Origin: Candidatus Nomurabacteria bacterium GW2011_GWC2_42_20
GTDB taxonomy: Bacteria > Patescibacteriota > Minisyncoccia > Phycocordibacterales > UBA1550
NCBI GenBank assembly: GCA_000998425.1
Contig: LCDG01000002.1
Span: forward strand, 35,178 to 99,177
Direction: 5' to 3'
Length of the DNA: 64,000 nucleotides
Positions 43,174 through 60,739 of this stretch are shown one piece after another. The stretch's first letter is position 1, and each line of letters opens with the position of its first letter. The notes beneath the pieces were generated by a model that made no database searches, was not told where the DNA came from, and saw nothing but the letters and a program-made list of their open reading frames with translations. Position numbers and translations under genes: made by a program.

Positions 43174-44784
43174 CTACTGTAAATTAACAATTCCATCCCC
43201 ATTAAAATCAAGTTGGGTCGCCAAATCATTAAATACTGCAAGGTCTGCAGCGCTCACAACCCCATCCCCATTGAAGTCTGAACCTCCGCAATTTTCAAAA
43301 GCTTTGTGACCGATGCAATAGTTTATAATCTGCTTGTCAGAATACCCAGTCGTGTCAAAAAATCTAGACTCAAACCAATCTAGCTTCCAACCAAAAGCAA
43401 GCCCTGGCCCACTAAAAAGGTCGTTCGCAAAAGCAAGATCACGATTGTCGATCGTACCATCCTCATTAAAATCTGCCTGCGCGCAGATCCCTGAGATTGG
43501 TGACGCTTTACACGAATTAAACACTGCCATATCTGCGCCTGCTGACCCAAAATCAGCTAGCCCGTCATCGTTTAGGTCATATTGCGCAATTGTTGCGTAT
43601 GTTATCTTGCCAAGAATGTTCTCAAAATACGGCTGCACCGGCGGCCCATCGTCGTATGCCTGCTGTCTGTTAAAAAATGTTTTTGAGAGCAGTGTGCGCA
43701 AGTCAACAACACTGCCATTTGATGCGCTCGTTACCCATGTTTTGAAATTACTATATTGTCCATCACTCCCTGCCTCACCAGGAGACACGCCATCTGCTCC
43801 CCAAACAAAACCAAAGGCCATATTTAAATAGCCATTATCTGCAGCACACACACTTCCAAGCACAGTTGACCTCAACCATGTTGCACCATTACATGCAACG
43901 GTTGGCATTAGCACTCTCCCTGCTGGCCCACCACACGGTGTCGTCTGAGCTGGGATGTCCTCCTGCTGTGTCTGTTGCGGATGAGGGAGCAAGCTACGGA
44001 CGTTTGCTGTTGATATTTTAAAGAAACAAGACTTTGCAGATTGTGGGGTGTCGTTTACAAGCTCTAATGTTGTGTTTTGGTTTACATTAAAAGTGTATCC
44101 TTTTGTCCTAAAAAGTCCTACGTCAGCGGTGTCTGTTTTCCCGTCACCATTTAAGTCGGTCTGCGCGCATAAATCGTATGTCGTGCTCATTATGCAGTGA
44201 GAAATAATCGAGTAGTCATTATTGCGATCAATCAACGCATTTATTTGATCCTGCGCTTGAGTGTTTGCTGCCACAATAGCAGCGTTGTTATCAATTGGCG
44301 CCGCTACACCGTAAACATCTGGCTGAACGAGTGGTGTTGTCGGTAGAGAAAGAGGAATATGTACACCACCACCTGCTGTAGTAGGCGCCGGCGACGTCCC
44401 TATTGGGGGTAAGCTAAAATTAAACTGCACCAGGCCTGGGTTGATAGAGTTTAAAATGAGATATGACGTCAAAACGAGAGTAAGCCCAATTAGGGCGTTC
44501 AAAATACGCTCCTTTGCGTCTTGTTTTGCGCTGGGAGCTATCCCTGCAACGACATATTGAGTACCTCCAATAATTGCGACAAGTATCGAGACTCCCGCAC
44601 CGAGAGCGATGAGAAGCTTGAGCATCCCACCTAGGTATGTGGAGAGGTTGGTTGTTTCTGAGCCAGTAGCTCCAGTAAATGTACCTGGGAGAGGTGCTAG
44701 TGGGGTGTAGTCTTGGGCGTGGGTAAACGAGGCAAACACAAAAAACGTTGCCATAAGAGAGATAAATATAACAATCTTTTTCAT
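43174..44784 (-). CDS. VirB2/TrbC-like pilin module fused to a large extracellular domain with dockerin-like Ca-binding repeats
   Basis: Signal peptide, then two hydrophobic helices separated by SAKQDAKER (GGMLKLLIALGAGVSILVAIIGGTQYVVAG...ILNALIGLTLVLTSYLIL). C-terminal D(L/F)N(G/D/E)DG...D repeats, four copies. Confidence 0.5.
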   Translation of the reverse strand: MKKIVIFISLMATFFVFASFTHAQDYTPLAPLPGTFTGATGSETTNLSTYLGGMLKLLIALGAGVSILVAIIGGTQYVVAGIAPSAKQDAKERILNALIGLTLVLTSYLILNSINPGLVQFNFSLPPIGTSPAPTTAGGGVHIPLSLPTTPLVQPDVYGVAAPIDNNAAIVAANTQAQDQINALIDRNNDYSIISHCIMSTTYDLCAQTDLNGDGKTDTADVGLFRTKGYTFNVNQNTTLELVNDTPQSAKSCFFKISTANVRSLLPHPQQTQQEDIPAQTTPCGGPAGRVLMPTVACNGATWLRSTVLGSVCAADNGYLNMAFGFVWGADGVSPGEAGSDGQYSNFKTWVTSASNGSVVDLRTLLSKTFFNRQQAYDDGPPVQPYFENILGKITYATIAQYDLNDDGLADFGSAGADMAVFNSCKASPISGICAQADFNEDGTIDNRDLAFANDLFSGPGLAFGWKLDWFESRFFDTTGYSDKQIINYCIGHKAFENCGGSDFNGDGVVSAADLAVFNDLATQLDFNGDGIVNLQ

Positions 44785-44880
44785 TCACTTTATAATACCA
44801 CAAACATATCCACAGGAGATGGAGTTTACTCTATATCTTATTAGTAGTCTCTGCTATAATATAATGGCGGAGAAATATAT

Positions 44881-45666
44881 ATGGACCAGCAATTTAAAAA
44901 AATATTTTCTGTCGCACTTGCGGTTATTGTTGGGGTTGGAATTATTTTCTTTGCGTTGAGGGGTATTGGTTTGCGCGACAATAAAGTTTCTTTCGAACCG
45001 ACGATAATAGATGGCAGTTGGAAGGACTCCTTGCTCACCATCCCATCATCAAAAGCACTGGATGTATTACAAAATAACCAGATTATTGAGGCCACAACAA
45101 CAGCTGACATTATTGCGCGCGAGCTAGTTGCAAACTATGCGCTTGTACAGCAAAGCAGGGCAACAACAACGCTGAGTGATACCGACGCGCAATCTATTGC
45201 TCAGATGCTAGTTGATAAAATAGACATACCAAAGGGTACTATTTATTCAGCAAATGATACCAGAACTTCGAACGACAATAGTAGCGCCGCAATCACAAAT
45301 TACATAAATAATGTTAGTGAAATAATGCAGAATTTTTCATTATCGCACAAAACGAATGAAGTAGTTATTTTCAAAGAGTCACTCGCATTAAAAGACGAAA
45401 CAAAACTTCAGGGTCTCGCGTCAATCGCTATAGAGTACAAAAACTTGCAAAAAAATCTTCTAGCAGTTTCAACCCCCTCCACAATGGCTTCTCTTCATCT
45501 CCGCCTTGTGCAGAGTTATTCAAACATAGAATCAGCAGTTACATCAATGCAAAAAATATTGACCGACCCAATACTTGGACTTGCCGCCTATACTCAATAC
45601 AAAAAAGAAAACGATGTACTTAGCGCGCTTGATACAGAATATCAAAGTTATGGCTCCCTGCGGTAG
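44881..45666 (+). CDS. membrane-anchored protein, hypothetical (T4SS-like cluster)
   Basis: N-terminal TM helix IFSVALAVIVGVGIIFFAL. Confidence 0.45.
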   Translation: MDQQFKKIFSVALAVIVGVGIIFFALRGIGLRDNKVSFEPTIIDGSWKDSLLTIPSSKALDVLQNNQIIEATTTADIIARELVANYALVQQSRATTTLSDTDAQSIAQMLVDKIDIPKGTIYSANDTRTSNDNSSAAITNYINNVSEIMQNFSLSHKTNEVVIFKESLALKDETKLQGLASIAIEYKNLQKNLLAVSTPSTMASLHLRLVQSYSNIESAVTSMQKILTDPILGLAAYTQYKKENDVLSALDTEYQSYGSLR

Positions 45667-45692
45667 CTTAAAATTCTAACAATAATTTTATT

Positions 45693-46559
45693 ATGAGACA
45701 TTCTTTCAATCTTCAAAAAAAACTACTCTTGCCTCTCTTTTCGGTGATATTTTTCTTTTCTGTTGGCACTCAGCGCGCCGATGCCCTTGTTTTTGTACCA
45801 GTTAACGACGCAGCACTAAACATAACAACTGATCTGCATGCTGGCTTCCAGGATGTAGCAAAAATGGGTCTAGACAGTGTTATGTACGCCGTAGGGCAAC
45901 AGCTGTTAACGCAGCTTACGGATAGTACAGTAAACTGGATCAAGAGTGGGTTCAATGGCAACCCGTTATATGCCATTGACCCAACAAAACTCTTCCTTGA
46001 CACAGCAAATGTTGTTTCAGGTGGGATGGCAAATCAAATCCGTGGCATAGCAACATGTAACTTCACCCCAAACTTCAACGCAAACCTTGCAAACAGAATA
46101 GAGTTATCAACACGAACTGGTGCAAACGCAAGGTTTAGCGACCAAATAACCTGCCCTTTCCCAACCAATGTAAACCCAACAGCTTTTTATAGCGACTTTA
46201 GTCAAGGGGGATGGAGTGCTTTTGAAGCATCGCTTTCTGACAGTGGCAACCCGTTTGGGGTTAACCTACTTGCTAGCCAAGAGCTTGCTCTTCGACAAGC
46301 TGAAGCACAAAGTCTAATGGACCAGAAACTAAACTGGGCGAATGGCTTTCTTTCTATGGAAGCTTGCTCCGGAACAGACCCTTACACCGGCATCCCCACA
46401 GACTGCAAAACCACAACACCTGGTAAGGTCATATCTGACACATTATCAAAAAGCATAGGCACTGATATGGACCGTATGGGCTTTGCTGACAATATGAACA
46501 AGGTCATTTCAGCGTTTGTCGCTAGCCTCACAAGTAGTGTGACTAGTGGTATATTTTAG
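45693..46559 (+). CDS. secreted protein, hypothetical (T4SS-like cluster)
   Basis: Signal peptide LLLPLFSVIFFFSVGTQRADA. Confidence 0.45.
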   Translation: MRHSFNLQKKLLLPLFSVIFFFSVGTQRADALVFVPVNDAALNITTDLHAGFQDVAKMGLDSVMYAVGQQLLTQLTDSTVNWIKSGFNGNPLYAIDPTKLFLDTANVVSGGMANQIRGIATCNFTPNFNANLANRIELSTRTGANARFSDQITCPFPTNVNPTAFYSDFSQGGWSAFEASLSDSGNPFGVNLLASQELALRQAEAQSLMDQKLNWANGFLSMEACSGTDPYTGIPTDCKTTTPGKVISDTLSKSIGTDMDRMGFADNMNKVISAFVASLTSSVTSGIF

Positions 46560-46570
46560 ATAAGAACTAA

Positions 46571-48718
46571 ATGCCTAGATCTCTACCAAAAATTATTGCA
46601 GCGATTCTTCTCGGGTTTGTTTTTCTGCTTGGTGGAGCAGAAGTGGCGTCGGCGCAGGCTCCTGTTTCTCCTGCCCTCGTAACACAGGATGCGATACTAG
46701 AAGGACTTAAATGTGGCGTTAATAACCCAATTACAAACCACAAACTCACAGATTGTGTACCTGTTTTTACTTATTATATACTATACATCCCAGCATCTTG
46801 GATGCTAGTTGGTGGTGCTTATGTTTTTGACGCTATGCTTATGTTGAGCATAGACAGCAAATTTGTTCAGCAGGATTTCATAGACACATCGTGGAAAGTT
46901 GTAAGGGATTTTTCTAATATGGCGTTCATTTTTGTGCTCTTGTACACAGGCATATCAACAATGCTCGGCACACCAGGGTGGGCAAAGACGGTTCGCAATG
47001 TCATAATAATAGCGCTTCTTATAAACTTCAGTCTTTTCTTTACCAAAGTAATAATTGACGCAGGGAATATTCTCGCTGTTGGCATATACGAAGCGATTGG
47101 CCAACCAAAGACAGCGAATGATGCTCATGTCGTTGCTGGGAAAAGTAGTTTAGACGAGAGGGATATTTCATTCAGGCTAGCTGAGAAGTTCCATCCACAG
47201 TCATTCATACGTACTACTGGTGAAATCCCTGCAATGGAGGCAACTGTTGTTTTTATTATAGCTGCCATTGTAAGTGTTTTCGCGGGATATATATTTTTTA
47301 AGGCTGCGCTTTTGTTTATCGGGCGCCTCCTTGCCTTTTGGTTTCTGATGATCATTTCTCCTTTTGCTTTCATTTCAATAACTTTTCCAAAGGGTAACAA
47401 GTTTCAAGGATGGCTAGATGCTCTCGTATCACAGGCGTTTGTGGCACCAGTATTCCTTTTTCTTGTCTACCTGATTATGCAGGTCATAAACTCAGGGGTT
47501 CTTAATGACCTAATAAATGATCCTGACTCAGCAAACACAGCAGGCTTCACTTTTGACAAGGTTCTTATGCCTGTAATTGTAGCAACGCTCATAATAATGG
47601 CGCTTAAATTCGCGTTGGAATTCTCAGAGAAAATGGCTGGGGATTTTGGTAAACTTGGAGCATCAATGGCTGGAGCAGTAATTGGTGTTGCTGGAGGGCT
47701 TGCTCTCGGGGGAACAGCTATCGCTGGGCGCGCAATTGGTGGCAAGCTTGCAGCTAAAGCATTTGAGGGTGGCACCATGCAGAAATGGGCAGCTTCTGAG
47801 AAAACTGGGCTTCTTGGCGCAGCACAACGCAACCTTGGAATGAGGGGCACAATGGCGCTCGATACAGCACGCAGCGCAAGCTGGGATGCTCGTAATGTTG
47901 GGCTAGTATCAAAAGGCATCAAATCAACAGGAGTTGATGTCGGTAAGGCTGGTGGCAAGGGCGGGTACGTACAAGGGCAAAAAGATTGGTTAAAAGAGCA
48001 AAAGAAAAAAGCAACATTGATGGAGCTTACGTCTGACGAAAAGGAGGCAATTAAAAAAGAGGCTCAAGCAAAGGTAGAAGCTGCTGGTGAAAAAACAGTG
48101 GGGGCAAAATTACTGGTAGCTGACGCCAAGGAAAAACATGATAATTCCGATGGTGCGCGCCTTGTTGCCACTCGAACAAAGCAATTGGAGGATGAGAGGA
48201 ATAAGCTGGAGGAGGCAAAAAAGAGCACGATGGCTGCTCAGGTAGCGTTTGATACAGCTAAAAACTCAGGGCGTCTTGATCCTTCACTCAAAGCTGCTAG
48301 GGATGCAGCAGAAAAAGCAGAGGAAGAAACTATGAACAGATTAAAGGAGACAGAGTCTGACCTTGCGAAGGCTACTGCAGACCATGCAAACTCAGCAACA
48401 GCCTCTGCCTTAAAAACGGTTACCGATTCTTTAACAGCAGCGCAACAAGATGAAGCAAAGGCTATTGACGCACTAAAAAATGTGGGCAATAAAATAAAAG
48501 AGGAGGACGAACGTAGACGTGGCGCTTACGGCGAACAAGTAACAACCGTACATGAGCCATTATCAATGGTATCAAAAACTGCTGAAGCTCGACGTAAAAA
48601 ATTAGTTGAGTCAATTCGCGCTGAAAAATCTGACGAAGATAAGAAAAAAGAAGAAAAGGCAAAGCTTCTAAAAGAGCTTGCCGAGGAAGTGAAAAAGAGC
48701 GGGGAGAGCGACCACTAA
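46571..48718 (+). CDS. VirB6/TrbL-like polytopic membrane protein with Gly-rich linker and long C-terminal coiled-coil
   Basis: Signal/TM start, at least 6 predicted TM helices in the first ~380 aa, then a hydrophilic K/E/A-rich tail. Confidence 0.5.
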   Translation: MPRSLPKIIAAILLGFVFLLGGAEVASAQAPVSPALVTQDAILEGLKCGVNNPITNHKLTDCVPVFTYYILYIPASWMLVGGAYVFDAMLMLSIDSKFVQQDFIDTSWKVVRDFSNMAFIFVLLYTGISTMLGTPGWAKTVRNVIIIALLINFSLFFTKVIIDAGNILAVGIYEAIGQPKTANDAHVVAGKSSLDERDISFRLAEKFHPQSFIRTTGEIPAMEATVVFIIAAIVSVFAGYIFFKAALLFIGRLLAFWFLMIISPFAFISITFPKGNKFQGWLDALVSQAFVAPVFLFLVYLIMQVINSGVLNDLINDPDSANTAGFTFDKVLMPVIVATLIIMALKFALEFSEKMAGDFGKLGASMAGAVIGVAGGLALGGTAIAGRAIGGKLAAKAFEGGTMQKWAASEKTGLLGAAQRNLGMRGTMALDTARSASWDARNVGLVSKGIKSTGVDVGKAGGKGGYVQGQKDWLKEQKKKATLMELTSDEKEAIKKEAQAKVEAAGEKTVGAKLLVADAKEKHDNSDGARLVATRTKQLEDERNKLEEAKKSTMAAQVAFDTAKNSGRLDPSLKAARDAAEKAEEETMNRLKETESDLAKATADHANSATASALKTVTDSLTAAQQDEAKAIDALKNVGNKIKEEDERRRGAYGEQVTTVHEPLSMVSKTAEARRKKLVESIRAEKSDEDKKKEEKAKLLKELAEEVKKSGESDH

Positions 48719-48726
48719 TATAAAAT

Positions 48727-49413
48727 ATGGACAACGAAACAACGCAAATTTTTATGGAACAACTAGGTAAACTACCGAGCACGGTTGTCGATTTCATTTC
48801 ATCTTCAAGTTGGGATGCTGATCTAGACGAAATAGGGTCTATGTATAACCTGCATGAGGAAGATCTTGTTAAGTTTAAACAGGAAGTAACTCTTGTACTT
48901 GCTGGACTAATACACCCAGATGAGTTTCGTGGCACACTAGAGCAAGAGGTTGGTTTACAAGGAGCTGTACTCGACGCGATAGTCAGTGCTACAGAAGAAA
49001 AAATCTTTGCGCAGGTTCGCCCCGCACTCATGGAGTTTTTTGAACAGGAGTCAAGCCAGTATGAAAGTCAAACGGAAGAATTACAAACTGCCCAGCCTGC
49101 ACAAGAAATCCCAAGAGCCCCGCAACGAGTATGGGAAAAAGAGCCTGATATCGTCCCAGACAACCTACCAACCGATGAAGAACCGGAGTCATTCCTCCCA
49201 CCAATTCCTCCAAAGGCACCAAAGGCGGAAGCCGATATTCCAAGCTGGGACATCACACCAGCACACCCATTTGAAGAAAAAATGAAAAAGGTATTTACCG
49301 CAGGGCAACAGTCTATGGGGGATCTAACGATAGAGCCTGCCACACCACAGGTCGCACCACCAGACACTACGCGCACATACCACGCAGACCCATACAGAGA
49401 GCCGATAGAGTAG
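48727..49413 (+). CDS. acidic Pro-rich protein, hypothetical
   Basis: 228 aa, pI acidic, PxxP-rich C-terminus. Confidence 0.4.
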   Translation: MDNETTQIFMEQLGKLPSTVVDFISSSSWDADLDEIGSMYNLHEEDLVKFKQEVTLVLAGLIHPDEFRGTLEQEVGLQGAVLDAIVSATEEKIFAQVRPALMEFFEQESSQYESQTEELQTAQPAQEIPRAPQRVWEKEPDIVPDNLPTDEEPESFLPPIPPKAPKAEADIPSWDITPAHPFEEKMKKVFTAGQQSMGDLTIEPATPQVAPPDTTRTYHADPYREPIE

Positions 49414-49586
49414 AATGTGGAATATGGAATTTTGAATATTGAATAGTGGGCACGGATTCCTGTATTAATTTTGGTGTTCATATTCCGCACAATACGGTAT
49501 AATATTTAGGTGGATAAAGAATATTTATTTAGATTATTCCAAAATTCATGAATTAGCAAATTCACGCCTGGCGCTATTCTACCCTT

Positions 49587-50042
49587 ATGCAATTTCATAT
49601 TCCTCAATACATCGACATAGAAGATAAGCTCTTTGGCCCACTCACACTCAAACAGGCTGTCTATGTCGCTGGCGGTCTCGGTGGGGCGTATCTTGTTTAC
49701 CGTATTATTCCATATACGGTGATAAAGGGTCCAATTATTTTGGGTATCGCGGGACTCACGTGGGCTCTGGCTTTTTACCCAAAAGAAAAGCTTGGTAAAC
49801 CTTTTATCGAGATCCTTGAAGCAGCTTTCAACTACATGGTGCGTGACAAACTTTACACCTGGAAAAAGACCACAAAAGAAGCCACCGCTGGGAAAGAAGA
49901 GGATTTCATTAAGTCGCAGTCTTTTTCCACGCCAACTGTTCCAACAGGAAAACTGTCTAGCACCTCATTCAACCTTGATGTGCGCGGAAAAGAAGAACCC
50001 GAAGAAAAAGTATTGGGAGGAGATGATACAATATTCAAATAA
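49587..50042 (+). CDS. VirB3/PrgI-like two-helix membrane protein
   Basis: MQFHIPQYIDIEDKLFGPLTLKQAVYVAGGLGGAYLV...IILGIAGLTWALAF. Sits immediately upstream of the VirB4-like ORFs. Confidence 0.5.
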   Translation: MQFHIPQYIDIEDKLFGPLTLKQAVYVAGGLGGAYLVYRIIPYTVIKGPIILGIAGLTWALAFYPKEKLGKPFIEILEAAFNYMVRDKLYTWKKTTKEATAGKEEDFIKSQSFSTPTVPTGKLSSTSFNLDVRGKEEPEEKVLGGDDTIFK

Positions 50043-50047
50043 TTAAT

Positions 50048-50704
50048 ATGGCAGTCAAATCAAAAGCAGCACAAGATTTTGTTCCAATCAAGGAAATTCG
50101 CGACGGTGTCGTGATTTTAAAAGACGGAACCATCCGTATGCTTCTCATGGCATCGTCGGTCAACCTAGCGCTTAAATCAGCAGACGAGCAACAGGCTGTT
50201 TTAATGCAATTTCAAAGTTTTCTAAACTCTCTTGAATTTTCAACACAAATTTTCATCCAATCACGCAGGCTAGACATTCGTCCATATATCATTCTGCTTG
50301 AGGAGCGTCTCAAGGAAGAGGTGAACGAGCTTCTAAAAATTCAGATTCGCGAATACATGGGCTTTGTGCAGACCATCGCGCAGTCGACAAACATTATGAG
50401 CAAACTTTTCATTATTGTTGTCCCTTATGCGCCGCCGAAATCTGTCACAAGTAGCTCTCCATCAAGTAGTGGCTTTACAGGACTCTTTGGTAAAAAAGGT
50501 CCTGTAAACACTAAGCCGTCCCAAAGCGCAATTGAAGCCTTCGAGGAAGCTCGAACACAGCTTGAGCAAAGGGCTGGTGTCATTAGTCACGGGCTTGCGC
50601 GTACTGGGGTACGCATAGTCCCGCTTGGCACTGAGGAGCTAACAGAACTCTATTACCGCCTTTTTAATCCAGGGGAGTCAGAGAAGAACGCAAACATTGG
50701 ATAG
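50048..50704 (+). CDS. VirB4-like N-terminal domain encoded as a separate ORF
   Basis: ...DFVPIKEIRDGVVILKDGTIRMLLMASSVNLALKS... resembles the N-terminus of Gram-positive VirB4/TraE/TcpF ATPases. Stops 17 nt before the ATPase ORF, which is in a different frame. Confidence 0.5.
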   Translation: MAVKSKAAQDFVPIKEIRDGVVILKDGTIRMLLMASSVNLALKSADEQQAVLMQFQSFLNSLEFSTQIFIQSRRLDIRPYIILLEERLKEEVNELLKIQIREYMGFVQTIAQSTNIMSKLFIIVVPYAPPKSVTSSSPSSSGFTGLFGKKGPVNTKPSQSAIEAFEEARTQLEQRAGVISHGLARTGVRIVPLGTEELTELYYRLFNPGESEKNANIG

Positions 50705-50720
50705 CTTTTAGCACACTATT

Positions 50721-52556
50721 ATGATCAATTTTTTTGGAAAAACACAAGCCACACAAACTGACACGAGTAAAAACTCCGTGCCAGTACTACCGCAAGATCT
50801 TTACGCGGATGCAGGTCTAAACCTAGCAGATATTATCGCACCATCTGCTGTAAAAGTAGAATCGAAACAGCTAATTTTGGGTGAAAAATTTGTGCGCTCA
50901 TTTTTCATTACCTCATACCCTAGTGTTGTTTCTGACAACTGGCTTTCTCCTCTCATAAATCTAGATAAAGTTTTTGATATTGCAATATATATTCACCCAG
51001 TCGACACTGCGGCGATTATGAAAAAATTTGAGAAGAAGGTTGCTGAAGTACAAAGCCAGATCAATGTGCGCGAAAGTAAGGGTTTTGTGCGCGACCCAAT
51101 GCTCGAGTCAGCATATCGTGACCTCGAGGAGCTCCGCGACCGCCTCCAGCAGGCACAGGAAAAAATGTTTGATGTTGGCCTTTATTTATCACTCTACGCC
51201 GATACAGAAGAAGGGCTTGGTCATGCAGAAGCGGAAATCAAATCGATGCTCGAGTCGCGTCTCATCTATGTGCGCCCAGCTCTATTCCAGCAAGAAGAAG
51301 CTTTCCAAAGTATTATCCCCGTGAACGAAGACAAAATCGTGGTTACAAAAAAAATCAACTCTGAACCACTTTCGAGCTTCTTCCCATTTGTGTCCTTCGA
51401 CCTTACCTCAGACAAGGGTATTCTGTATGGGATAAATCGCCACAATTCTTCTCTTGTCCTTTTTGACCGTTTCTCTCTAGAGAATTACAATTCGGTTACT
51501 TTCGCAAAATCCGGCTCTGGAAAATCTTTTGCCACCAAGCTAGAAATATTAAGGAGTCTGATGTTTGATGTTGATGTTATTGTTATTGACCCTGAGCGCG
51601 AATATGAATCTATGGCAGAGGCGGTGGGCGGGCGATATTTTAATATTTCTCTCAATTCCAAGCACCACATAAATCCATTTGACCTTCCTGTCCCACGTGA
51701 GGACGAGTCGCCAGCAGACGTCCTCCGAGCTAATATAATTTCCCTTGTTGGGCTTTTTCGCCTCATGCTATCTGGGCTTACCCCAGAGGAAGATTCTATT
51801 GTAGACCGCGCGATCGCTGAGACATACGCGCTCAAAGATATTACCCCTGACTCCGACTTTTCTGCAATCGAACCACCACTGCTCTCAGACTTTGAAATGG
51901 TCCTCTCTGGGATGGAAGGCGCGGAGTCAATCCTAACAAAACTCACAAAATACACTCGTGGCTCGTGGGCAGGGTTTATCAACCAGCCGTCAAACGTTGA
52001 CATAAACCGAAAATTTATCGTTTTTTCAGTGCGTGATATGGAGGACGACCTGAAGCCAGTTGCAATGTATCTAGTTACGCACTTTATTTGGAATGCTGTT
52101 CGTCGCACTCTCCGCAAACGACTTCTCGTAGTAGATGAAGCGTGGTGGATGATGAAGTCTGACGATACTGCCGCATTTCTATACGCTCTTGCAAAGAGAG
52201 GCCGCAAATACTACCTCGGTATTTCTACAATCACCCAAGATGTAACAGACTTCCTAAAATCCCCATATGGTCTGCCTATTATGACCAACTCTTCCATCCA
52301 AATACTTTTAAAACAATCTCCTACATCTATTGACGCGGTCCAAAAAGCATTCAATCTAACGGACGAAGAAAAATTCCTCCTTCTGGAGTCTGGTGTTGGG
52401 GAAGGGATCTTTTTCGCAGGAATGAAACATGTTGCTATCCGAACAATAGCATCCTACACAGAGGAGCAGATTATTACGTCGGACCCGTCACAAATTCTCG
52501 CTATTAAAAAGGCAAAGCGTGAACTTGCTGAAGCAGAGGCAAAAACAGGTCTATAG
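50721..52556 (+). CDS. VirB4/TrbE-like type IV secretion ATPase (C-terminal ATPase domain)
   Basis: Walker A FAKSGSGKSF, Walker B LLVVDEAWWMM, C-terminal ...GISTITQDVTDF. Confidence 0.8.
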   Translation: MINFFGKTQATQTDTSKNSVPVLPQDLYADAGLNLADIIAPSAVKVESKQLILGEKFVRSFFITSYPSVVSDNWLSPLINLDKVFDIAIYIHPVDTAAIMKKFEKKVAEVQSQINVRESKGFVRDPMLESAYRDLEELRDRLQQAQEKMFDVGLYLSLYADTEEGLGHAEAEIKSMLESRLIYVRPALFQQEEAFQSIIPVNEDKIVVTKKINSEPLSSFFPFVSFDLTSDKGILYGINRHNSSLVLFDRFSLENYNSVTFAKSGSGKSFATKLEILRSLMFDVDVIVIDPEREYESMAEAVGGRYFNISLNSKHHINPFDLPVPREDESPADVLRANIISLVGLFRLMLSGLTPEEDSIVDRAIAETYALKDITPDSDFSAIEPPLLSDFEMVLSGMEGAESILTKLTKYTRGSWAGFINQPSNVDINRKFIVFSVRDMEDDLKPVAMYLVTHFIWNAVRRTLRKRLLVVDEAWWMMKSDDTAAFLYALAKRGRKYYLGISTITQDVTDFLKSPYGLPIMTNSSIQILLKQSPTSIDAVQKAFNLTDEEKFLLLESGVGEGIFFAGMKHVAIRTIASYTEEQIITSDPSQILAIKKAKRELAEAEAKTGL

Positions 52557-52573
52557 ATACTTGTGTAGATTAT

Positions 52574-53749
52574 TTGATGTGCAAATTTGTTGGACTTCCA
52601 GCTGGTGTTCGCGGTATACTAAGTCATATGTATTCAATGCGTAGTGTTGCACTAAGCGCTCTTTTAGGTGGTTTTATTTTTACGCCGTTATTTGCCTTTG
52701 CTCAAACATCCACAACAACAGCAGAGCAGCCTGTGAGCCAGCTTCAACAACAGATAGACCAGCTTATTCGTGATCGCATGAATTCCATGCCAACGACAGA
52801 GGAGATTCGCGCAAGCTCTATTCGTAATTACCTAGAGGTAAAAACGATTCCAGAAACCCCTGGGCCATCAGAAATGGTGCGCGTTTCTATCGAGAGCTAC
52901 CTCACCGACCTTAACAAGGCCACAATAAGCTGGTCTCTCAACGGGAAGGTTGTTGATCGTGGAGTTGGTAGAAAATCATTTTCTTTTCAGAACGGTCCTT
53001 CCGGTAAAACCACCCGCTTAACCATCTCGATTACAACAAATGCTGGTGAATATATAACGAAGGAATTTTCTTGGAATCCTGTCGGCCTCACAATTCTTTG
53101 GGAAGCAGACACATACACGCCTCCTTTTTATAAAGGAAAGGCTCTACTGACCGCACAAGCAAACGTAAAAGCTGTTGCAATCCCTGACAATACCGATGGG
53201 CAAAACGCTCTAAGTGCTGGAAATTTTGTATATGTTTGGGAAAAGGATGGTGTGGTGGTATCCGAATCTTCTGGCTATGGAAAAAACTTTTTTTCATTTA
53301 CAGCACCAAAACCTTACGGGGACGCGAAAGTAAAAGTTAAAGCTTCTTCAGTAAACAACTCAATAAACTCCGAGACTCGAGTTAATCTTTCCCTTTCCCA
53401 GCCAGTTATTTTATTCTATGAAAAAAACCCCCTATTAGGTGTTTTGTACAATCAACCATTTGGCACAGAAACAACATTGAATAAAAAGGAATTTACTGTC
53501 GTTGCGGAGCCATATTTCTTTTCAAGAGAAGCGAGTGAGACGCCAGCTTTCAAATATGACTGGGCTGTCAACAACAAAGCAACTCAGAGTTACGGTCGAT
53601 CAATAACACTTAGAAATGACACTGGTGTAAAAGGAGAGTCTGCCATTTCTCTATCAATGCGTGGACTTAAACAAACCTTTCAAAATGCGAGCAAAGAACT
53701 TAGGGTTCAATTTACTGGCGGAGAGACCTCAGACCGTCCGATATTTTAA
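52574..53749 (+). CDS. secreted beta-rich protein, hypothetical (T4SS-like cluster)
   Basis: Signal peptide ...FTPLFAFAQTST. Confidence 0.45.
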   Translation: MMCKFVGLPAGVRGILSHMYSMRSVALSALLGGFIFTPLFAFAQTSTTTAEQPVSQLQQQIDQLIRDRMNSMPTTEEIRASSIRNYLEVKTIPETPGPSEMVRVSIESYLTDLNKATISWSLNGKVVDRGVGRKSFSFQNGPSGKTTRLTISITTNAGEYITKEFSWNPVGLTILWEADTYTPPFYKGKALLTAQANVKAVAIPDNTDGQNALSAGNFVYVWEKDGVVVSESSGYGKNFFSFTAPKPYGDAKVKVKASSVNNSINSETRVNLSLSQPVILFYEKNPLLGVLYNQPFGTETTLNKKEFTVVAEPYFFSREASETPAFKYDWAVNNKATQSYGRSITLRNDTGVKGESAISLSMRGLKQTFQNASKELRVQFTGGETSDRPIF

Positions 53750-53755
53750 ACTACC

Positions 53756-54601
53756 ATGAAATACGTATTATCAATTTTTATTGGAATCATCTTTACAACT
53801 CTCTTTGGAGTATTTGTCGCCCACGCCCAAAACTACACCCCACTGGCGCCACTCCCACTTGGTGAAGGCGGTACACCACTTACTACTTACACAATTAGCT
53901 CATACCTCGGTGGGATGCTCAAGCTACTCATCGCTCTCGGTGCGGGAGTCTCGATACTTGTTGCTATCATTGGTGGCACTCAATACGTTGCTGCGGGTAT
54001 AGCTCCTAGCGCAAAACAGGACGCAAAGGAGCGTATTTTGAACGCACTAATTGGGCTTACTCTCGTTTTGACGTCATATCTCATTTTAAACTCTATCAAC
54101 CCAGGCCTGGTGCAGTTTAATTTTAGCTTACCTCCAATAGGGACAAGTCCGATGGCTACGACGACGCCCATAGTAGCAGAACCATGGCCAGACGATGCCT
54201 CAGAGCGCGCGCAGCTTGCAAGTAAAAATATTATGGTCACGGGAACAAAGACATCTACAACTTGCAAAACAATATGGGAAAAAGGGTGCACAAGTGTTTA
54301 TCAATTAGGGTCAGGTGCGATAAGTGGTCTTTTATCCCTAAAAGATTCGTGTTTGAGTTGTGCTATTGTTGTTACAGGTGGTACTGAATATTGGAGCCAT
54401 AGCGTGAACACAGCACATAGGCCAGGAAACTCGGTGGTTGACATTGATAATGGCAGTTCCGCACTTAACCAAAAAATTAGGTCCGGGACATCTCTAGGTG
54501 TTCAGTCCTCATGCAGTAGTCTTGGTGTTGCATATCGGCTTACTGGTCCAGGAGCGGGTCTATATGTGGACGAGGGAAACCACTGGCATGTTTGTTACTA
54601 A
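53756..54601 (+). CDS. VirB2/TrbC-like pilin module fused to a Cys-containing C-terminal domain (paralog of 43174..44784)
   Basis: aa 49-132 are identical to the other copy. The underlying DNA is about 93% identical in inverted orientation. Confidence 0.5.
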   Translation: MKYVLSIFIGIIFTTLFGVFVAHAQNYTPLAPLPLGEGGTPLTTYTISSYLGGMLKLLIALGAGVSILVAIIGGTQYVAAGIAPSAKQDAKERILNALIGLTLVLTSYLILNSINPGLVQFNFSLPPIGTSPMATTTPIVAEPWPDDASERAQLASKNIMVTGTKTSTTCKTIWEKGCTSVYQLGSGAISGLLSLKDSCLSCAIVVTGGTEYWSHSVNTAHRPGNSVVDIDNGSSALNQKIRSGTSLGVQSSCSSLGVAYRLTGPGAGLYVDEGNHWHVCY

Positions 54602-54610
54602 AATACAATT

Positions 54611-55930
54611 ATGAACCGAAAAACACTTATTATCATAATCTCACTTATCATCCTTGTTAGTATTGGAGGATATTTCTTTTTGTCTAAAAAAGCTCCTGTG
54701 GCCACACCGATAGATGGCACTTTCCCTGGGGGTGGTGGTTCATTTACTGGAACAGGCAGTATGGGTGGCGACGATACTCTATCAGGCGGTGATGCATTCA
54801 TCCCAGGGTCAAGCATGCCTCTCCCACGCCTTTATGAGCTACATAAGGTTCCAGTAGCTGGTATAGGATTTATAGAGGAAGGAAAGAGCCCAAACAACAC
54901 TATTGTTGCCCGCTATATTGAGCGCGGACTTGGGCATATATACGAGACTCAGCTTGCCACACTTGTTGAATCTCGTATTGTAAACGAAACTCGTCCACGT
55001 ATTATGGAAGCATTGTGGGGTAATGGTGGTAAAAGTGTTGTTGTTAGATTTATTGACGACAAAGATGGTTTCTCAGTTGTAAAAACAAATATCGTTAACG
55101 TTGGAGGGATTACCACATCATTTGCTCGTAGCACATCAACAGAAATGATATCTGATTTTATAACGACAGAAGAGACAAGCCTCCCCGACCATATCCCATT
55201 CATGGCGACGGTTGAGGATGGTGGAAATAAAATTTTTTATCTCGAGAACGGAGTTAATGCTTCTACTGGGGCCCTAGCGACATTTAATGATTTTAGTGTT
55301 TCGACAATATTTAGTTCCTCTTTTACAGAGTGGCTTCCTCAGTTCCCAAACCAAAACCTTATTACACTAACCACAAGACCTTCAGCAAAAGTAGCCGGAC
55401 ATCTTTTCTTTATAAGCCCAAAGAATAAATCGGTTACAAAAATTCTTGGCGGAATAAATGGCCTCACCACACTCACTAGTCGTGACGGGAAACATGTCCT
55501 CTTTGCGGAGACGATGGGGGATGCGCCAGAACTCTCTGTGTATGATGTCGCAAACAAGAACACCAATCATTTCCTACTACACACACTTCCTGAAAAATGT
55601 GTGTGGGGTTCCAAAAATTCAACTATGGCATACTGCGCTATCCCTCAAAGCATCCCCGTAGCGACATACCCTGACCAGTGGTACCAAGGTCTTGTAGCAT
55701 TTTCAGATGCTTTGTGGAGTATAGACACAGAGACAGGTGATGTTGCAAAGATTATGACTCCTGGCGACTATAGAGCCGCTAATCTTGATATGATTAACCT
55801 AGCTCTTTCGTCAGACGATTCACATCTCGTATTTATGAATAAAACATCTGGGACACCATGGGTGTATCGTATTGCGGAAATATCTACACCCACGACAGAT
55901 ATATCAACAACAACTGTTTCTGGTATGTAG
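54611..55930 (+). CDS. membrane-anchored extracytoplasmic protein, hypothetical
   Basis: N-terminal TM helix LIIIISLIILVSIGGYFFL. Gly-rich linker. Confidence 0.45.
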   Translation: MNRKTLIIIISLIILVSIGGYFFLSKKAPVATPIDGTFPGGGGSFTGTGSMGGDDTLSGGDAFIPGSSMPLPRLYELHKVPVAGIGFIEEGKSPNNTIVARYIERGLGHIYETQLATLVESRIVNETRPRIMEALWGNGGKSVVVRFIDDKDGFSVVKTNIVNVGGITTSFARSTSTEMISDFITTEETSLPDHIPFMATVEDGGNKIFYLENGVNASTGALATFNDFSVSTIFSSSFTEWLPQFPNQNLITLTTRPSAKVAGHLFFISPKNKSVTKILGGINGLTTLTSRDGKHVLFAETMGDAPELSVYDVANKNTNHFLLHTLPEKCVWGSKNSTMAYCAIPQSIPVATYPDQWYQGLVAFSDALWSIDTETGDVAKIMTPGDYRAANLDMINLALSSDDSHLVFMNKTSGTPWVYRIAEISTPTTDISTTTVSGM

Positions 55931-55990: not shown

Positions 55991-56147
55991 TTAGCGACGT
56001 AGAGCGAGCGAAGTGAGAATGTACTCATTCACACTTCCGAGCCGAGGAGTTAATATAGGTAAATACCGCGTGGTATCTGCCACGCTTTTGCACGAGCGAA
56101 ACGAGTCCAAACATTACCCTGCGGTCTTTGCCGCAGGGACCTATATT
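55986..56147 (+). repeat. intergenic repeat element, copy B
   Basis: ttttattagcgacgtagagcgagcg...ttccgagccgagg...aatataggt...ccgcgtggtatctgccacgcttttgcacgagc...ctgcggtctttgccgcagggacctatatt. Confidence 0.6.
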
Positions 56148-56157
56148 TTCTGGTTGC

Positions 56158-56886
56158 TTAGTCTTTGATCTCCTCTGCTTTTCTCTTTACATAAAGCTCG
56201 TGTCCAATTGAAAATAGATTGCTTGTTGTCCAATATAGAGCCACTGCTGCTGAAATAGAGTAGGAGATACCGAAAACTATCACAGGCAACATATATCGCA
56301 TCTGTACATTAAAACTCCTTGCAAAATCATCTTTAAACGACGGTTTTGCCCCTTTTTCAGCTGGCGCCATTGGGGGAATAGAAAGCTTAATCTGATAATA
56401 CTGAGTGATTGCCGCAAGCAGTGCGAGGATTATGCTTTTTTTAGAGAGAACAATTCCCAAGAACATCATGCTGACGACTGAAGGCACATGAACGAATGAG
56501 TATAGGTGTTCTGGGTTGAGGTTTGGTAGACCTTTGAAAAATACAAAGTAAAGCGCAAAAATAACTGGAAGTTGTATTAAAACAAGAAGACACCCAGAAA
56601 ATGGATTTATCCCGTGCTCCTTGTAGAGCTCCATTGTTTTGCGAGCCTGCTCTTGCTTGTTGTCCTTATGTTTTTCTTTTAGTTTCTCGAGATGTGGCGC
56701 AAGAGATCGCATTTTTGCTTGCGACACAACAGACTTATGAGACAAAGGAAGAAGCACTGATCGCACAACAACAGTAAGTATAATAATGGCAACCCCAACG
56801 TTTGCCCCTGGAACAGCTGCAAGTATTAAAACAAGTGTATTATATAGGGGCTTATAAAAAACCGTCGAAAAAAATCCTGATTCCAT
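56158..56886 (-). CDS. yidC: membrane protein insertase YidC (short form)
   Basis: Five TM helices, YidC/Oxa1 core. Follows yidD, rnpA and rpmH. Confidence 0.85.
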   Translation of the reverse strand: MESGFFSTVFYKPLYNTLVLILAAVPGANVGVAIIILTVVVRSVLLPLSHKSVVSQAKMRSLAPHLEKLKEKHKDNKQEQARKTMELYKEHGINPFSGCLLVLIQLPVIFALYFVFFKGLPNLNPEHLYSFVHVPSVVSMMFLGIVLSKKSIILALLAAITQYYQIKLSIPPMAPAEKGAKPSFKDDFARSFNVQMRYMLPVIVFGISYSISAAVALYWTTSNLFSIGHELYVKRKAEEIKD

Positions 56887-56952
56887 TTGAGTATACTAGC
56901 GTAAATAGTTCTTTTTAGGAAGAGGTAAAATATCCTGCTCTATGACTTGTGG

Positions 56953-57183
56953 TTAGTGAAGTGGGTCTATATGATTCTTTTGCCATGGGTGGCAACGGAG
57001 GATGCGACGGAAGCCCATAAAAAGCCCTTTAGTTGCTCCATATTTAGACACAGCCTGCTTTGTGTATTCTGAGCATGTTGGATAAAAAACACAAGTTGTT
57101 CCTTTCTTAAGAGAAAGTACCCCAGTGTCTAGGGATAGAAACTTTTGATAAAAGTTTATGGTGGAAATAACAATTTTTCGCAT
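56953..57183 (-). CDS. yidD: membrane protein insertion efficiency factor YidD
   Basis: ...CVFYPTCSEYTKQAVSKYG... Confidence 0.85.
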   Translation of the reverse strand: MRKIVISTINFYQKFLSLDTGVLSLKKGTTCVFYPTCSEYTKQAVSKYGATKGLFMGFRRILRCHPWQKNHIDPLH

Positions 57184-57188
57184 AAATG

Positions 57189-57560: not shown

Positions 57561-57650
57561 TTAGATTGAATTTTGAATGTAGGATATTGGATATCGAATG
57601 GATGTGGGCCCAATTCTACATTCTAGCTTCAATATTCAATATTCCACCCC

Positions 57651-57946: not shown

Positions 57947-57966
57947 ATATCCACATGTTATCCACA
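57947..57966 (+). promoter_or_regulatory. two adjacent DnaA boxes upstream of dnaA
   Basis: aTATCCACAtgTTATCCACA. Confidence 0.7.
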
Positions 57967-60737: not shown

Positions 60738-60739
60738 AA

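What the first reader, a model, noticed from the sequence alone, without database searches (positions are those of the whole stretch)
44389..54151. ~250-bp near-identical inverted repeats encoding a shared VirB2-like pilin module on two different fusion proteins, flanking the T4SS-like core
Nucleotides ~44389-44640 (minus-strand gene) and ~53900-54151 (plus-strand gene) are about 93% identical. They encode an identical 84-aa two-helix segment (SYLGGMLKLLIALGAGVSILVAIIGGTQYV.AGIAPSAKQDAKERILNALIGLTLVLTSYLILNSINPGLVQFNFSLPPIGTSP). The rest of the two proteins is unrelated: 536 aa with dockerin-like repeats versus 281 aa with a Cys-containing domain. The two copies are inverted and bracket ~9.3 kb holding the VirB6, VirB3 and VirB4-like genes. 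Such high DNA identity implies recent duplication or ongoing gene conversion. The arrangement could also permit recombination-mediated inversion of the core, or modular swapping of surface-exposed C-terminal domains on a constant membrane anchor.
Basis: seen in the sequence. Interest (0 to 1): 0.75.

Follow-up and report, generated by a model that had tools for sequence, protein, structure and literature searches.

The report
Shared pilin head on swappable tails
Two genes flanking the type IV secretion-like machine of an ultra-small groundwater bacterium share a pilin-like membrane "head" that repeated DNA copying between them keeps nearly identical, while each carries a different, exchangeable outer domain, one of which is probably a cell-wall-cutting enzyme.

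Summary
Arms 44378-44639 and 53901-54162 form a 262-nt inverted repeat (91% identical; 93% over the 243-nt module), 9,261 nt apart. They bracket the VirB4/PrgI/VirB6-like core of a Candidatus Yonathbacteria (Patescibacteria) chromosome next to dnaA.

The repeat encodes the mature "head" of two VirB2-like (PF18895) proteins. Gene B (281 aa) occupies the conserved pilin slot downstream of virB4. Its tail belongs to a large unannotated family, probably a zinc peptidoglycan peptidase. Gene A (536 aa) carries a dockerin-like tail.

Ongoing gene conversion is strongly supported. In five genomes the A and B heads are 88-99% identical within a genome but about 70% identical between genomes. Signal peptides and tails instead group by gene type. 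Tract boundaries are the same in three lineages, even where the two genes are unlinked.

Tail swapping is also supported. Near-identical heads carry at least four tail families. One contig is 99.9% identical to the window up to the module's last bases and has a different tail beyond, although an assembly chimera is not excluded.

Inversion of the core is not supported. The long contigs examined all share one orientation, full-length hybrid proteins are absent from about 15 billion sequences, and no invertase is nearby.

This is a new variant of a known system and moderately interesting.

The parts
43174..44784 (-). Gene A, 536 aa: signal peptide, VirB2-like head and dockerin-like Cys-containing tail. 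Transcribed divergently from the T4SS-like operon.
   Evidence: ORF. PF18895 27.5 bits and Dockerin_1. Exact protein P0134 is on 12 contigs. Full-length orthologues at 50-86% identity in other Yonathbacteria.
43177..44385 (-). A tail (aa 134-536): five D-x-N-x-D-G calcium-loop motifs (dockerin/EF-hand-like) and conserved cysteines. A portable module that also occurs on non-pilin N-termini.
   Evidence: Dockerin_1 27.7 bits, 3 stretches. Invariant D/N/G columns in alignment A2. AF2 model poor overall (pLDDT 57.5), with dockerin-like segments at 80-90. P0148 and P0149 carry the tail on other N-termini.
44378..44639 (-). Repeat arm I1 in gene A: encodes the two-helix pilin module (aa 50-133).
44686..44723 (-). 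Short repeat arm I2 in gene A: end of the signal peptide plus the mature N-terminus HAQDYTPLAPLP.
44408..44493 (-). 86-nt block exactly identical to 54047-54132. It is the longest perfect match between the arms, and both hybrid contigs cross over inside it.
44521..44578 (-). Divergent patch of the module (codons 19-38; 13 of 20 codons differ from gene B, 12 of them synonymously).
   Evidence: clustering P about 0.001.
53756..54601 (+). Gene B, 281 aa: signal peptide, VirB2-like head and 'type 1' Cys/His-rich tail. It occupies the conserved pilin slot of the operon.
   Evidence: ORF. PF18895 26.3 bits. A module lies about 1.2-1.5 kb downstream of virB4 in 61 of 80 related loci. 178 homologues, most of them full length. 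Exact protein P0179 is on 19 contigs.
53820..53857 (+). Short repeat arm I2 in gene B.
53901..54162 (+). Repeat arm I1 in gene B (pilin module, aa 50-133). Its 3' end (54144) is the junction between the 99.9% and ~94% identity segments in contig SCQJ01000012.1.
54155..54598 (+). B tail (aa 134-281): compact alpha/beta domain with invariant E211, H215, D229, E273, H276, W277, H278 and four Cys. Putative zinc (LAS/hedgehog-like) peptidoglycan peptidase.
44881..46559 (+). First two operon genes (261 and 288 aa), conserved in relatives, function unknown.
46571..48718 (+). 715-aa polytopic membrane protein, a VirB6 analogue.
   Evidence: Weak NCBIfam hits to Mbov_0396/MMCAP2_0566 conjugal-transfer membrane proteins, below cut-off. 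Conserved synteny.
48727..49413 (+). 228-aa conserved protein, no family.
49587..50042 (+). PrgI/VirB3-like protein.
   Evidence: PF12666 30.6 bits.
50048..50704 (+). TrsD/TraC-like protein (resembles the N-terminal part of VirB4).
   Evidence: NCBIfam TrsD and VirB4_plasma N-terminal region, weak. PF26593 in the precomputed table.
50721..52556 (+). VirB4-like ATPase.
   Evidence: PF19044 87 bits, PF12846, PF03135. 587 relatives in genome contigs.
52574..53749 (+). 391-aa conserved secreted protein immediately upstream of gene B.
54611..55930 (+). 439-aa conserved protein, last gene of the operon.
56117..56141 (.). Bidirectional terminator-like hairpin between the operon and yidC.
   Evidence: consensus scan only; the counts are not above chance.

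Best explanation
Genes A and B are two 'modular' VirB2-like pilins of the chromosomal, oriC-proximal type IV secretion-like machine of a Candidatus Yonathbacteria bacterium. Each has its own Sec signal peptide, a common mature head of about 110 aa, and a different extracytoplasmic tail. The head consists of the YTPLAPLP motif, a linker and a two-helix membrane hairpin. Recurrent non-reciprocal homologous recombination (gene conversion) between the two genes keeps the heads nearly identical, while the signal peptides and tails evolve independently. The inferred reason is that both proteins must be handled by, and probably assemble into or dock onto, the same T4SS/pilus structure, so the heads have to stay compatible. 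The conserved module also serves as a portable recombination junction at which tails are exchanged between paralogues and between strains. The B tail is most likely a zinc-dependent peptidoglycan peptidase. It would supply the cell-wall-opening (VirB1-like) activity that these loci otherwise lack, or attack the host's wall. The A tail is a calcium-binding dockerin-like docking or adhesion module. The inverted orientation of the two heads is a by-product of divergent gene arrangement, not a switch. Shown: the repeat, the architectures, concerted evolution, tract boundaries, tail diversity, and the cell-wall enzyme identity of many related tails. Inferred: the reason for homogenisation, enzymatic activity of this particular tail, surface display, and co-assembly.
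Confidence: 0.7

Rival explanations
1. Invertible switch. RecA-type recombination between the inverted heads flips the 9.3-kb T4SS core. This exchanges which promoter and signal peptide drives which tail, and reverses the operon relative to the origin (a shufflon-like phase variation).
For: Inverted arms with an 86-nt perfect block could be substrates. In G4 the arms are 99% identical over about 330 nt. Two short contigs from different samples and assemblers (L081, ERZ4903055; L082, ERZ28563803 ANAN16-1) join the B upstream region and head to A-tail sequence, with the crossover inside the identical block.
Against: The 12 contigs of 20-200 kb carrying exact A were collapsed by the tool to two gene neighbourhoods, both in the window's orientation. 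The same orientation is kept in three further lineages. None of the four possible full-length hybrid proteins occurs in about 15 billion proteins, whereas the parentals occur on 12 and 19 contigs. No reciprocal (A-head/B-tail) junction was found. Both hybrid contigs are aberrant. L081 continues into reverse-complemented B tail through a 9-nt microhomology, and L082 has a frameshifting deletion of about 117 nt, so both look like chimeras or dead ends. No site-specific recombinase is adjacent; the only one in the window is a Xer-like gene at 25018-26016. Because the heads are nearly identical, inversion would barely change the proteins. Homogenisation does not need the inverted arrangement.
Confidence: 0.1
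2. Carrier-and-release, or polymorphic-effector, model. The pilin head is an export and targeting carrier. The tail is cleaved at the ...PPIGTSP junction, as C-terminal propeptides are removed from TrbC-type pilins (own knowledge), and is released or delivered to the host cell as a wall-degrading effector. The tail diversity reflects an arms race with hosts.
For: There is a sharp, conserved head/tail junction rich in Pro/Gly/Thr/Ser, with low model confidence at residues 128-133. Closely related strains differ in tail family. The tails are cell-wall enzymes of many families. The T4SS is essential for epibiotic growth (PMC10633639).
Against: No processing protease, immunity gene or delivery signal was identified. 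The gene downstream of B (g439) is conserved whatever the tail type. This model does not explain why the heads of two paralogues should be kept identical any better than the co-assembly model does. No experimental data exist.
Confidence: 0.2
3. A single recent duplication of the head, followed only by purifying selection, with no continuing exchange.
For: High DNA identity of the two arms in this genome.
Against: Both gene types are old and orthologous across lineages whose tails are only 57-65% identical in DNA, yet the heads are 86-99% identical within each genome. Synonymous sites are homogenised, and substitutions co-vary between paralogues. The mosaic of identical and divergent blocks is non-random. 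The same pattern recurs independently in distant loci.
Confidence: 0.03

Closest known systems
VirB2-like pilins and pilin arrays of the patescibacterial T4SS (Quinonero-Coronel et al. 2025, PMC12102498; Wang et al. 2023, PMC10633639; review PMC12857230)
   Same: Same system. It is a chromosomal MPF-FATA-derived T4SS with VirB4, PrgI/VirB3, TrsD and a VirB6-like protein, located next to dnaA, rnpA and ksgA, with PF18895 pilin genes near virB4, no relaxase nearby and usually no VirB1.
   Different: Published arrays are described as sequence-divergent paralogues (mean 25%, maximum 54% identity). Here the two heads are 98% identical and kept so by gene conversion. The pilins carry large C-terminal domains, and the copies are inverted around the core rather than in tandem. 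Neither pilin-enzyme fusions nor homogenised heads are mentioned in the papers searched.
Modular type IV pilins (Streptococcus sanguinis PilB and PilC; PMC8179133, PMC9934059)
   Same: A pilin module that directs assembly is fused to a C-terminal functional module displayed on the filament. Several pilins share the assembly module but differ in function.
   Different: That is a different filament superfamily: type IV pilin with an N-terminal alpha-1 helix, prepilin peptidase and PilB/PilC machinery. Here the module is a VirB2-type two-helix hairpin with a Sec signal peptide, and display on a filament has not been shown.
VirB1-type / PrgK / TcpG / TrsG peptidoglycan hydrolases of Gram-positive T4SS (cited in PMC12102498)
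   Same: Membrane-anchored, often multi-domain cell-wall hydrolases (SLT, CHAP/NlpC-P60, LytM) encoded within the T4SS locus. Related pilin-slot proteins here carry the same enzyme families.
   Different: The anchor is a VirB2-like pilin module rather than a simple transmembrane helix. The window's own tail matches none of the known hydrolase profiles. The enzyme domain is exchanged between close relatives.
R64 shufflon, which switches the PilV C-terminus by DNA inversion (own knowledge, not tested here)
   Same: A constant N-terminal pilin part is combined with alternative C-terminal segments through DNA rearrangement between inverted repeats in a conjugation-related system.
   Different: The shufflon uses short sfx sites and the dedicated Rci recombinase, and both orientations coexist. 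Here the repeats are 262-nt coding homologies, no recombinase is adjacent, and only one orientation is seen.
Concerted evolution and gene conversion of bacterial paralogues, such as Neisseria pilE/pilS and tufA/tufB (own knowledge)
   Same: Non-reciprocal recombination keeps or transfers sequence between paralogues, giving within-genome similarity greater than between-genome similarity, with mosaic tracts.
   Different: In pilE/pilS the variable part is converted to create diversity. Here the constant part is converted to preserve identity, while the variable tails are left alone.
Polymorphic toxin systems (CdiA-CT, Rhs; own knowledge)
   Same: A conserved N-terminal delivery part, a sharply demarcated junction, and highly variable C-terminal enzymatic domains exchanged by recombination.
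   Different: No cognate immunity gene, no orphan cassettes seen, and the N-terminal part is a pilin-like hairpin. Toxicity is untested.

Membership tests
T4SS_pilin (PF18895) / VirB2-like pilin | Profile match at or above Pfam's gathering score | tested here: inconclusive
   A scores 27.5 bits (above 26.6) and B scores 26.3 bits (0.3 below). 53 of 62 slot homologues match at E<0.001, and 6 also match TrbC PF04956. There is a weak NCBIfam hit to the Mbov_0395 pilin-like protein.
T4SS_pilin (PF18895) / VirB2-like pilin | Sec signal peptide followed by two hydrophobic helices forming a hairpin with a short basic loop | tested here: met
   AF2 model has H4-21, H47-79 and H84-114, with pLDDT about 91-94 in the hairpin. 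An AHA|Q cleavage motif and the loop AGIAPSAKQDAKER are visible in the sequence.
T4SS_pilin (PF18895) / VirB2-like pilin | Encoded in a T4SS locus next to virB4 | tested here: met
T4SS_pilin (PF18895) / VirB2-like pilin | Small stand-alone subunit that polymerises into a pilus | tested here: not met
   Both proteins carry large tails (148 and 403 aa). Stand-alone pilins are a small minority among the 62 slot proteins. Polymerisation itself cannot be tested with these tools.
LAS / M15-type zinc peptidoglycan peptidase (B tail) | Match to the VanY, Peptidase_M15 or related profiles | tested here: not met
   No Pfam hit at E<=1. No PDB sequence hit at E<=10. hhalign against VanY-type tails gives P=0.015, not significant.
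LAS / M15-type zinc peptidoglycan peptidase (B tail) | Hedgehog/DD-peptidase fold | tested here: inconclusive
LAS / M15-type zinc peptidoglycan peptidase (B tail) | Conserved His/Asp/His metal ligands and catalytic Glu (H..D, ExxH or HxH) | tested here: met
   E211, H215, D229, E273, H276, W277 and H278 are invariant in 93 sequences and in 22 tails. Assigning them as ligands is an inference.
Dockerin type I (A tail) | Profile match above threshold, with duplicated calcium-binding loop-helix segments | tested here: met
   Dockerin_1 scores 27.7 bits against a cut-off of 22.9, in 3 stretches. Invariant D-x-N-x-D-G columns in A2. A cohesin partner was not searched for.
Invertible DNA switch (shufflon or inverton) | Inverted repeats flanking the segment | tested here: met
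Invertible DNA switch (shufflon or inverton) | Dedicated site-specific recombinase in or beside the element | tested here: not met
   None among the flanking or internal genes. The only recombinase in the window is a Xer-like gene at 25018-26016.
Invertible DNA switch (shufflon or inverton) | Both orientations present in the population | tested here: not met
   One orientation in all long contigs examined. Hybrid proteins are absent. Two aberrant short contigs are ambiguous. Read-level data were not available.
Concerted evolution by gene conversion | Paralogues more alike within a genome than orthologues are between genomes, restricted to a defined tract | tested here: met
Concerted evolution by gene conversion | Mosaic of converted and unconverted blocks, with non-random substitution clustering | tested here: met
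   (P about 0.001 and 0.006).
Polymorphic toxin system | Variable C-terminal toxin with a co-varying downstream immunity gene | tested here: not met
   The gene downstream of B (g439) is conserved whatever the tail type. No small co-varying ORF was seen. This was not examined exhaustively.

The most novel reading that the evidence does not exclude
The VirB2-like head is a universal adaptor that loads an exchangeable arsenal of cell-wall-active and adhesive domains onto a patescibacterial T4SS pilus or onto its base. This would make it a VirB2-based counterpart of modular type IV pilins and polymorphic toxins. The epibiont would use it to breach or remodel the wall of its host, or its own wall. 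Gene conversion keeps all adaptors compatible with one machine, while recombination at the head/tail junction retools host specificity. This would explain both why these T4SS loci lack VirB1 and why their pilins are essential.
Probability: 0.3. Interest if true: 0.8.

Novelty: new variant of a known kind. Interest (0 to 1): 0.6.

Why it matters
The patescibacterial T4SS is one of the few machines shown to be essential for the epibiotic lifestyle of these abundant, mostly uncultured bacteria. What it transports, what its pilins do, and how it crosses the cell wall without a VirB1 are all open questions (PMC12102498, PMC12857230, PMC10633639).

This locus, and the roughly 60 related loci examined, point to a concrete and testable answer. 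The pilin slot downstream of virB4 usually encodes a pilin head fused to a peptidoglycan-active enzyme. Paralogues with other tails share the same head through gene conversion.

That gives three things to work with. First, candidate enzymes to express and assay, including a domain family of 2,003 cluster representatives that has no Pfam model. Second, a clear evolutionary signature (head grouped by genome, tail grouped by type) that argues for co-assembly. Third, a natural junction for engineering fusions in the few genetically tractable Patescibacteria.

Tried and rejected
1. Two scans of metagenome contigs, one with the exact 54-mer of the invariant block and one with a codon-degenerate pattern for NPGLVQFNFSLPPIGT, returned nothing. 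No population survey of junctions was possible that way.

2. Foldseek of the B model against PDB and BFVD gave no significant hit, because the helical hairpin dominates. afdb50 is not installed. Model coordinates are not exposed, so I could not check whether the invariant residues cluster.

3. Profiles of the full B family and of the tail alone found nothing among PDB sequences, even at E<=10. Pfam and NCBIfam have no model for tail types 1 or 2.

4. hhalign of type 1 against VanY tails was not significant, although it aligns GGTEYW.H..VDL with GAEYSKH..GVDI. Types 2 and 2b are homologous (97.7%). The A tail served as a negative control.

5. The A model was too poor (pLDDT 57.5) for a fold search.

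6. My first inference, that gene A is a lineage-specific insertion because it is absent between up320 and g261 in L005 and L007, was revised. A-type genes sit at the same site in three other lineages and at an unlinked site in a fourth.

7. Exact look-up of four constructed inversion-product proteins found none.

8. GC skew gave no clear origin signal. Promoter and terminator scan counts were not above chance.

9. I considered and rejected an assembly artefact as the source of the repeat, because 12-19 independent contigs carry it.


Full report
**Observation**

The window is part of DNTU01000017.1 (GCA_003508085.1), a Candidatus Yonathbacteria MAG. Locus L084 is 100% identical to window 54784-33174.

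The repeat finder reports an inverted repeat with arms 44378-44639 and 53901-54162: 262 nt, 91% identical, 9,261 nt apart. It also reports a second 38-nt pair, 44686-44723 and 53820-53857. The arms lie in gene A (43174-44784, minus strand, 536 aa) and gene B (53756-54601, plus strand, 281 aa).

Over the 81 codons of the shared module there are 17 differences in 243 nt (93.0% identity). Sixteen are synonymous and one is a V/A replacement. Similarity ends abruptly after ...PPIGTSP. No third copy exists in the window.

The exact A protein is on 12 contigs and the exact B protein on 19, including several Rifle GW2011 MAGs. The repeat is therefore real.

**Context**

Between the arms lies an operon:
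- genes of 261, 288 and 228 aa with no family assignment;
- a 715-aa polytopic protein with weak hits to Mycoplasma ICE membrane proteins;
- a PrgI/VirB3-like protein;
- a TrsD-like protein;
- a VirB4-like ATPase;
- a 391-aa protein.

Gene B follows, then a 439-aa protein.

On one side the flanks are uvrD/pcrA, ksgA, and a PG_binding_1+TIG protein. On the other side they are yidC, yidD, rnpA, rpmH, dnaA and dnaN. This is the chromosomal, oriC-proximal T4SS of Patescibacteria described by Quinonero-Coronel et al. 2025. That paper also reports VirB2-like pilins near virB4, the usual absence of VirB1, and pilin arrays whose members share at most 54% identity (PMC12102498). The system is essential for epibiotic growth in the one species tested (PMC10633639; PMC12857230).

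**What the two genes are**

Both hit PF18895 T4SS_pilin. A scores 27.5 bits and B 26.3, against a cut-off of 26.6.

A confident AlphaFold model of B (mean pLDDT 86.7) shows three parts:
- a signal peptide;
- a two-helix hairpin (H47-79, H84-114);
- after a low-confidence linker at residues 128-133, a compact alpha/beta domain with pLDDT 95-98.

Using VirB4 as an anchor, I fetched 80 related loci. In 61 of them a module-encoding gene lies 1.2-1.5 kb downstream of virB4 on the same strand, which is gene B's position. Synteny from uvrD to yidC is conserved.

The B architecture has 178 homologues in the protein search, most of them full length and 270-310 aa. An exhaustive profile search with the tail alone finds 2,003 cluster representatives, 923 of them at E<=1e-10. 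The domain almost always starts around residue 140-230. It is a large family with no Pfam model.

The A architecture (head plus dockerin-like tail) has full-length relatives at 50-86% identity in other Yonathbacteria. In three further lineages the A-type gene sits at the same place and in the same inverted orientation as in the window (L086-L091). In MHUW01 it lies next to recG on another contig (L093). It is absent from this site in L005 and L007.

**Gene conversion**

Protein identities in five genomes that have both gene types:

| Segment | A vs B, same genome | Same gene type, other genomes |
|---|---|---|
| Signal peptide | 35% (mean) | 45-46% |
| Head | 88, 99, 99, 98, 97% | about 70% |
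| Tail | 27% (mean) | 48-56% |

The outer segments of each gene therefore follow gene type, and the middle segment follows the genome.

At the DNA level, heads are 85.9% (window), 99.0% (G4) and 95.8% (G5, unlinked genes) identical within a genome. Between genomes they are 60-70% identical, the same range as the A tails at 57-65%.

The heads of G2 and G3 differ from each other at the same positions in both paralogues. The homogenised tract begins 61-79 nt after the ATG, at the signal-peptidase site. It ends at nt 385-404, at the module's end, in all three lineages examined.

In the window the tract is a mosaic:
- an 89%-identical stretch for HAQxYTPLAPLP;
- a non-homologous linker;
- codons 0-18, with 2 differences;
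- codons 19-38, with 13 differences;
- codons 39-80, with 3 differences, including an 86-nt perfect block.

The clustering is non-random (P about 0.001; a run of 28 identical codons, P about 0.006).

Four distant Paceibacteria loci have two direct-orientation paralogues that share 87-100% identical head DNA but carry different tails.

A single recent duplication cannot explain these patterns. Recurrent non-reciprocal exchange can.

**Tail exchange**

Near-identical heads are joined to several tail families:
- type 1 (the window's B tail; 83 of 178 proteins fetched);
- type 2 (15);
- type 2b (4; homologous to type 2, hhalign 97.7%);
- VanY-type (18);
- A-type (13);
- SLT (1).

P0045 combines a B-like signal peptide with the window's A-type linker and module, up to APTT, and a type 2 tail. 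The related MAG MFD12107 has the same kind of mosaic, and its contigs break inside the module.

The clearest case is SCQJ01000012.1:
- It is 99.9% identical to the window from 33174 to 54144 (12 mismatches in 20,971 nt).
- At the last bases of the module it switches to a non-homologous type 2 tail.
- It is then only 93-95% identical through g439, yidC, rnpA, dnaA, dnaN and the PBP gene.

This is either a natural recombinant with its breakpoint at the module, or a strain-switch chimera made by the assembler at the repeat. I cannot distinguish the two without reads.

The A tail is also portable. P0148 and P0149 carry it on non-pilin N-termini, one of which looks like a peptidoglycan-binding domain.

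**What the tails do**

Among 62 complete pilin-slot proteins from the 80 loci, most have 150-270 residues after the module.

About a third have tails that Pfam recognises. Apart from non-catalytic Ig-like domains and one weak Octopine_DH hit, all of these act on peptidoglycan:

| Pfam family | Members |
|---|---|
| NlpC/P60 | 9 |
| YkuD | 4 |
| VanY | 4 |
| Amidase_5 | 4 |
| SLT variants | 4 |
| Peptidase_M15_4 | 1 |
| Amidase_2 | 1 |

The evidence for the window's type 1 tail is as follows:
- The invariant residues are E211, H215, D229, E273, H276, W277, H278 and four cysteines. This is an H...D...ExxH/HxH pattern like that of LAS-type zinc peptidases (own knowledge).
- In P0273 and P0286 the domain sits between a pilin module and an SLT domain.
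- Against this, there is no profile or PDB-sequence match, hhalign to VanY tails is not significant, and Foldseek found nothing.

I therefore treat "zinc peptidoglycan peptidase" as the most likely function, not an established one.

The A tail matches Dockerin_1 (27.7 bits, 3 stretches) and has five D-x-N-x-D-G loops. Its model is poor.

**Inversion**

The arms could in principle recombine. Two short contigs from different samples join the B upstream region and head to A-tail sequence, crossing over inside the 86-nt identical block.

Both contigs are aberrant:
- L081 continues into reverse-complemented B tail through a 9-nt microhomology.
- L082 has a frameshifting deletion of about 117 nt.

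The evidence against inversion:
- The 12 long contigs with exact A collapse to two gene neighbourhoods, both in the window's orientation.
- Three other lineages keep the same orientation, including G4 with 99%-identical arms.
- No reciprocal junction appeared.
- None of four constructed full-length hybrids is found among about 15 billion proteins.
- No recombinase is adjacent. A Xer-like gene lies about 17 kb from gene A.
- Homogenisation works equally well for unlinked and direct-orientation copies.

I rate a functional switch at about 0.1.

**Mechanism proposed**

*Shown:* two paralogues with type-specific signal peptides and tails, and a genome-specific head maintained by gene conversion within sharp boundaries. 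Tails are exchangeable at the module's end. Related tails are cell-wall enzymes.

*Inferred:* the heads must stay identical because both proteins are recognised by, and probably assemble into or dock on, the same T4SS/pilus structure. With a Sec signal peptide and a two-helix hairpin, both ends of the mature protein face outward, so the tails are extracytoplasmic.

The B tail would provide the wall-opening activity that these VirB1-less loci need, or act on the host's wall. The A tail would provide calcium-dependent docking or adhesion. A carrier-and-release variant, in which the tail is cleaved at the junction, cannot be excluded.

**Comparison and novelty**

The system itself is known. I did not find the following in the literature I searched:
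- VirB2-like pilin heads routinely fused to peptidoglycan-active or docking domains;
- heads of paralogues kept identical by concerted evolution, in contrast to the published divergent arrays;
- the head/tail junction as a recombination point.

The nearest functional analogue is the modular type IV pilin concept (PMC8179133), which belongs to another filament superfamily. I classify this as a new variant of a known kind, with interest about 0.6.

Noticed in passing
window 334-6467: A type IV pilus gene cluster on the minus strand: PilB-like ATPase (4719-6467; T2SSE, MshEN), PilC-like platform protein (3276-4496; T2SSF), a pilin with an N-terminal methylation motif (2726-3259), and four small ORFs with no family that may be minor pilins. 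This organism therefore has both filament systems within 50 kb.
   Followed up: no
window 56000-62000: G+C content falls to 0.33-0.36 across the yidC, rnpA, dnaA and dnaN region, against about 0.43 in the rest of the window. GC skew gives no clear origin signal. The T4SS operon (plus strand) points towards dnaA.
   Followed up: no
L087 12166-13182 and L088 12166-13182: In a related lineage (ERZ25039499), an IS110-family transposase (DEDD_Tnp_IS110, Transposase_20) is inserted directly after the A-type gene. In the window and in L086 and L089, the PG_binding+TIG gene follows immediately. Several core genes in these two contigs are also called as fragments.
   Followed up: no
L081 1-1260 (ERZ4903055 k141_3069153): A composite contig. 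Window 53142-54144 is followed by A tail 44395->44288, then, through the 9-nt microhomology AATTGATAA, by reverse-complemented B tail 54308->54151, and the contig ends at the module edge. It is either a palindrome-like rearrangement or a chimeric read or assembly.
   Followed up: partly
L082 913-931 (ERZ28563803 ANAN16-1 scaffold_340735): The B-head/A-tail hybrid carries a deletion of about 117 nt relative to window 44376-44260. The deletion shifts the frame, giving a 145-aa protein (P0001), about the size of a stand-alone pilin. A-tail sequence follows at 100% identity for 606 nt.
   Followed up: partly
window 53556-53755 versus L094: In the first 10,389 nt of L094, which match window 43756-54144 at 99.9%, 6 of the 10 mismatches fall within the last 200 nt of the 391-aa gene just upstream of gene B. 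This may be a second small recombination patch.
   Followed up: no
window 50048-50704: The 218-aa protein upstream of VirB4 matches TrsD and the N-terminal region (positions 101-219) of the long Mycoplasma VirB4 model (PF26593 TraC-like). This suggests VirB4 is split into two genes here.
   Followed up: no
window 54155-54598 and proteins P0183-P0316: The type 1 tail defines a domain family of at least 2,003 clusters at 50% identity, with no Pfam, NCBIfam or PDB relative. A few members are short (131-201 aa; for example P0272 and P0291) and have no recognisable pilin head. They could be stand-alone forms or gene fragments.
   Followed up: partly
window 35658-38615: A 985-aa ORF with no Pfam match, followed by a DUF5663 gene. 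It is conserved next to uvrD in related contigs (851-985 aa).
   Followed up: no
window 43446-43485 and 44130-44169: A direct repeat inside gene A (40 nt, 70% identical) corresponds to two of the dockerin-like D-x-N-x-D-G calcium-loop motifs. It is an internal repeat of the protein, not part of the A/B homology.
   Followed up: yes
window 53858-53902 and 44638-44685: Two linker 'alleles' occur between the YTPLAPLP motif and the first helix. One is PGTFTGATGSETTNLST (A here; both genes in G4; the B-slot gene of MFD12107). The other is P[IL]GEGGxxxxxYTxSS (B here; both genes in G2, G3 and G5). The window genome is the only one seen with one of each.
   Followed up: partly
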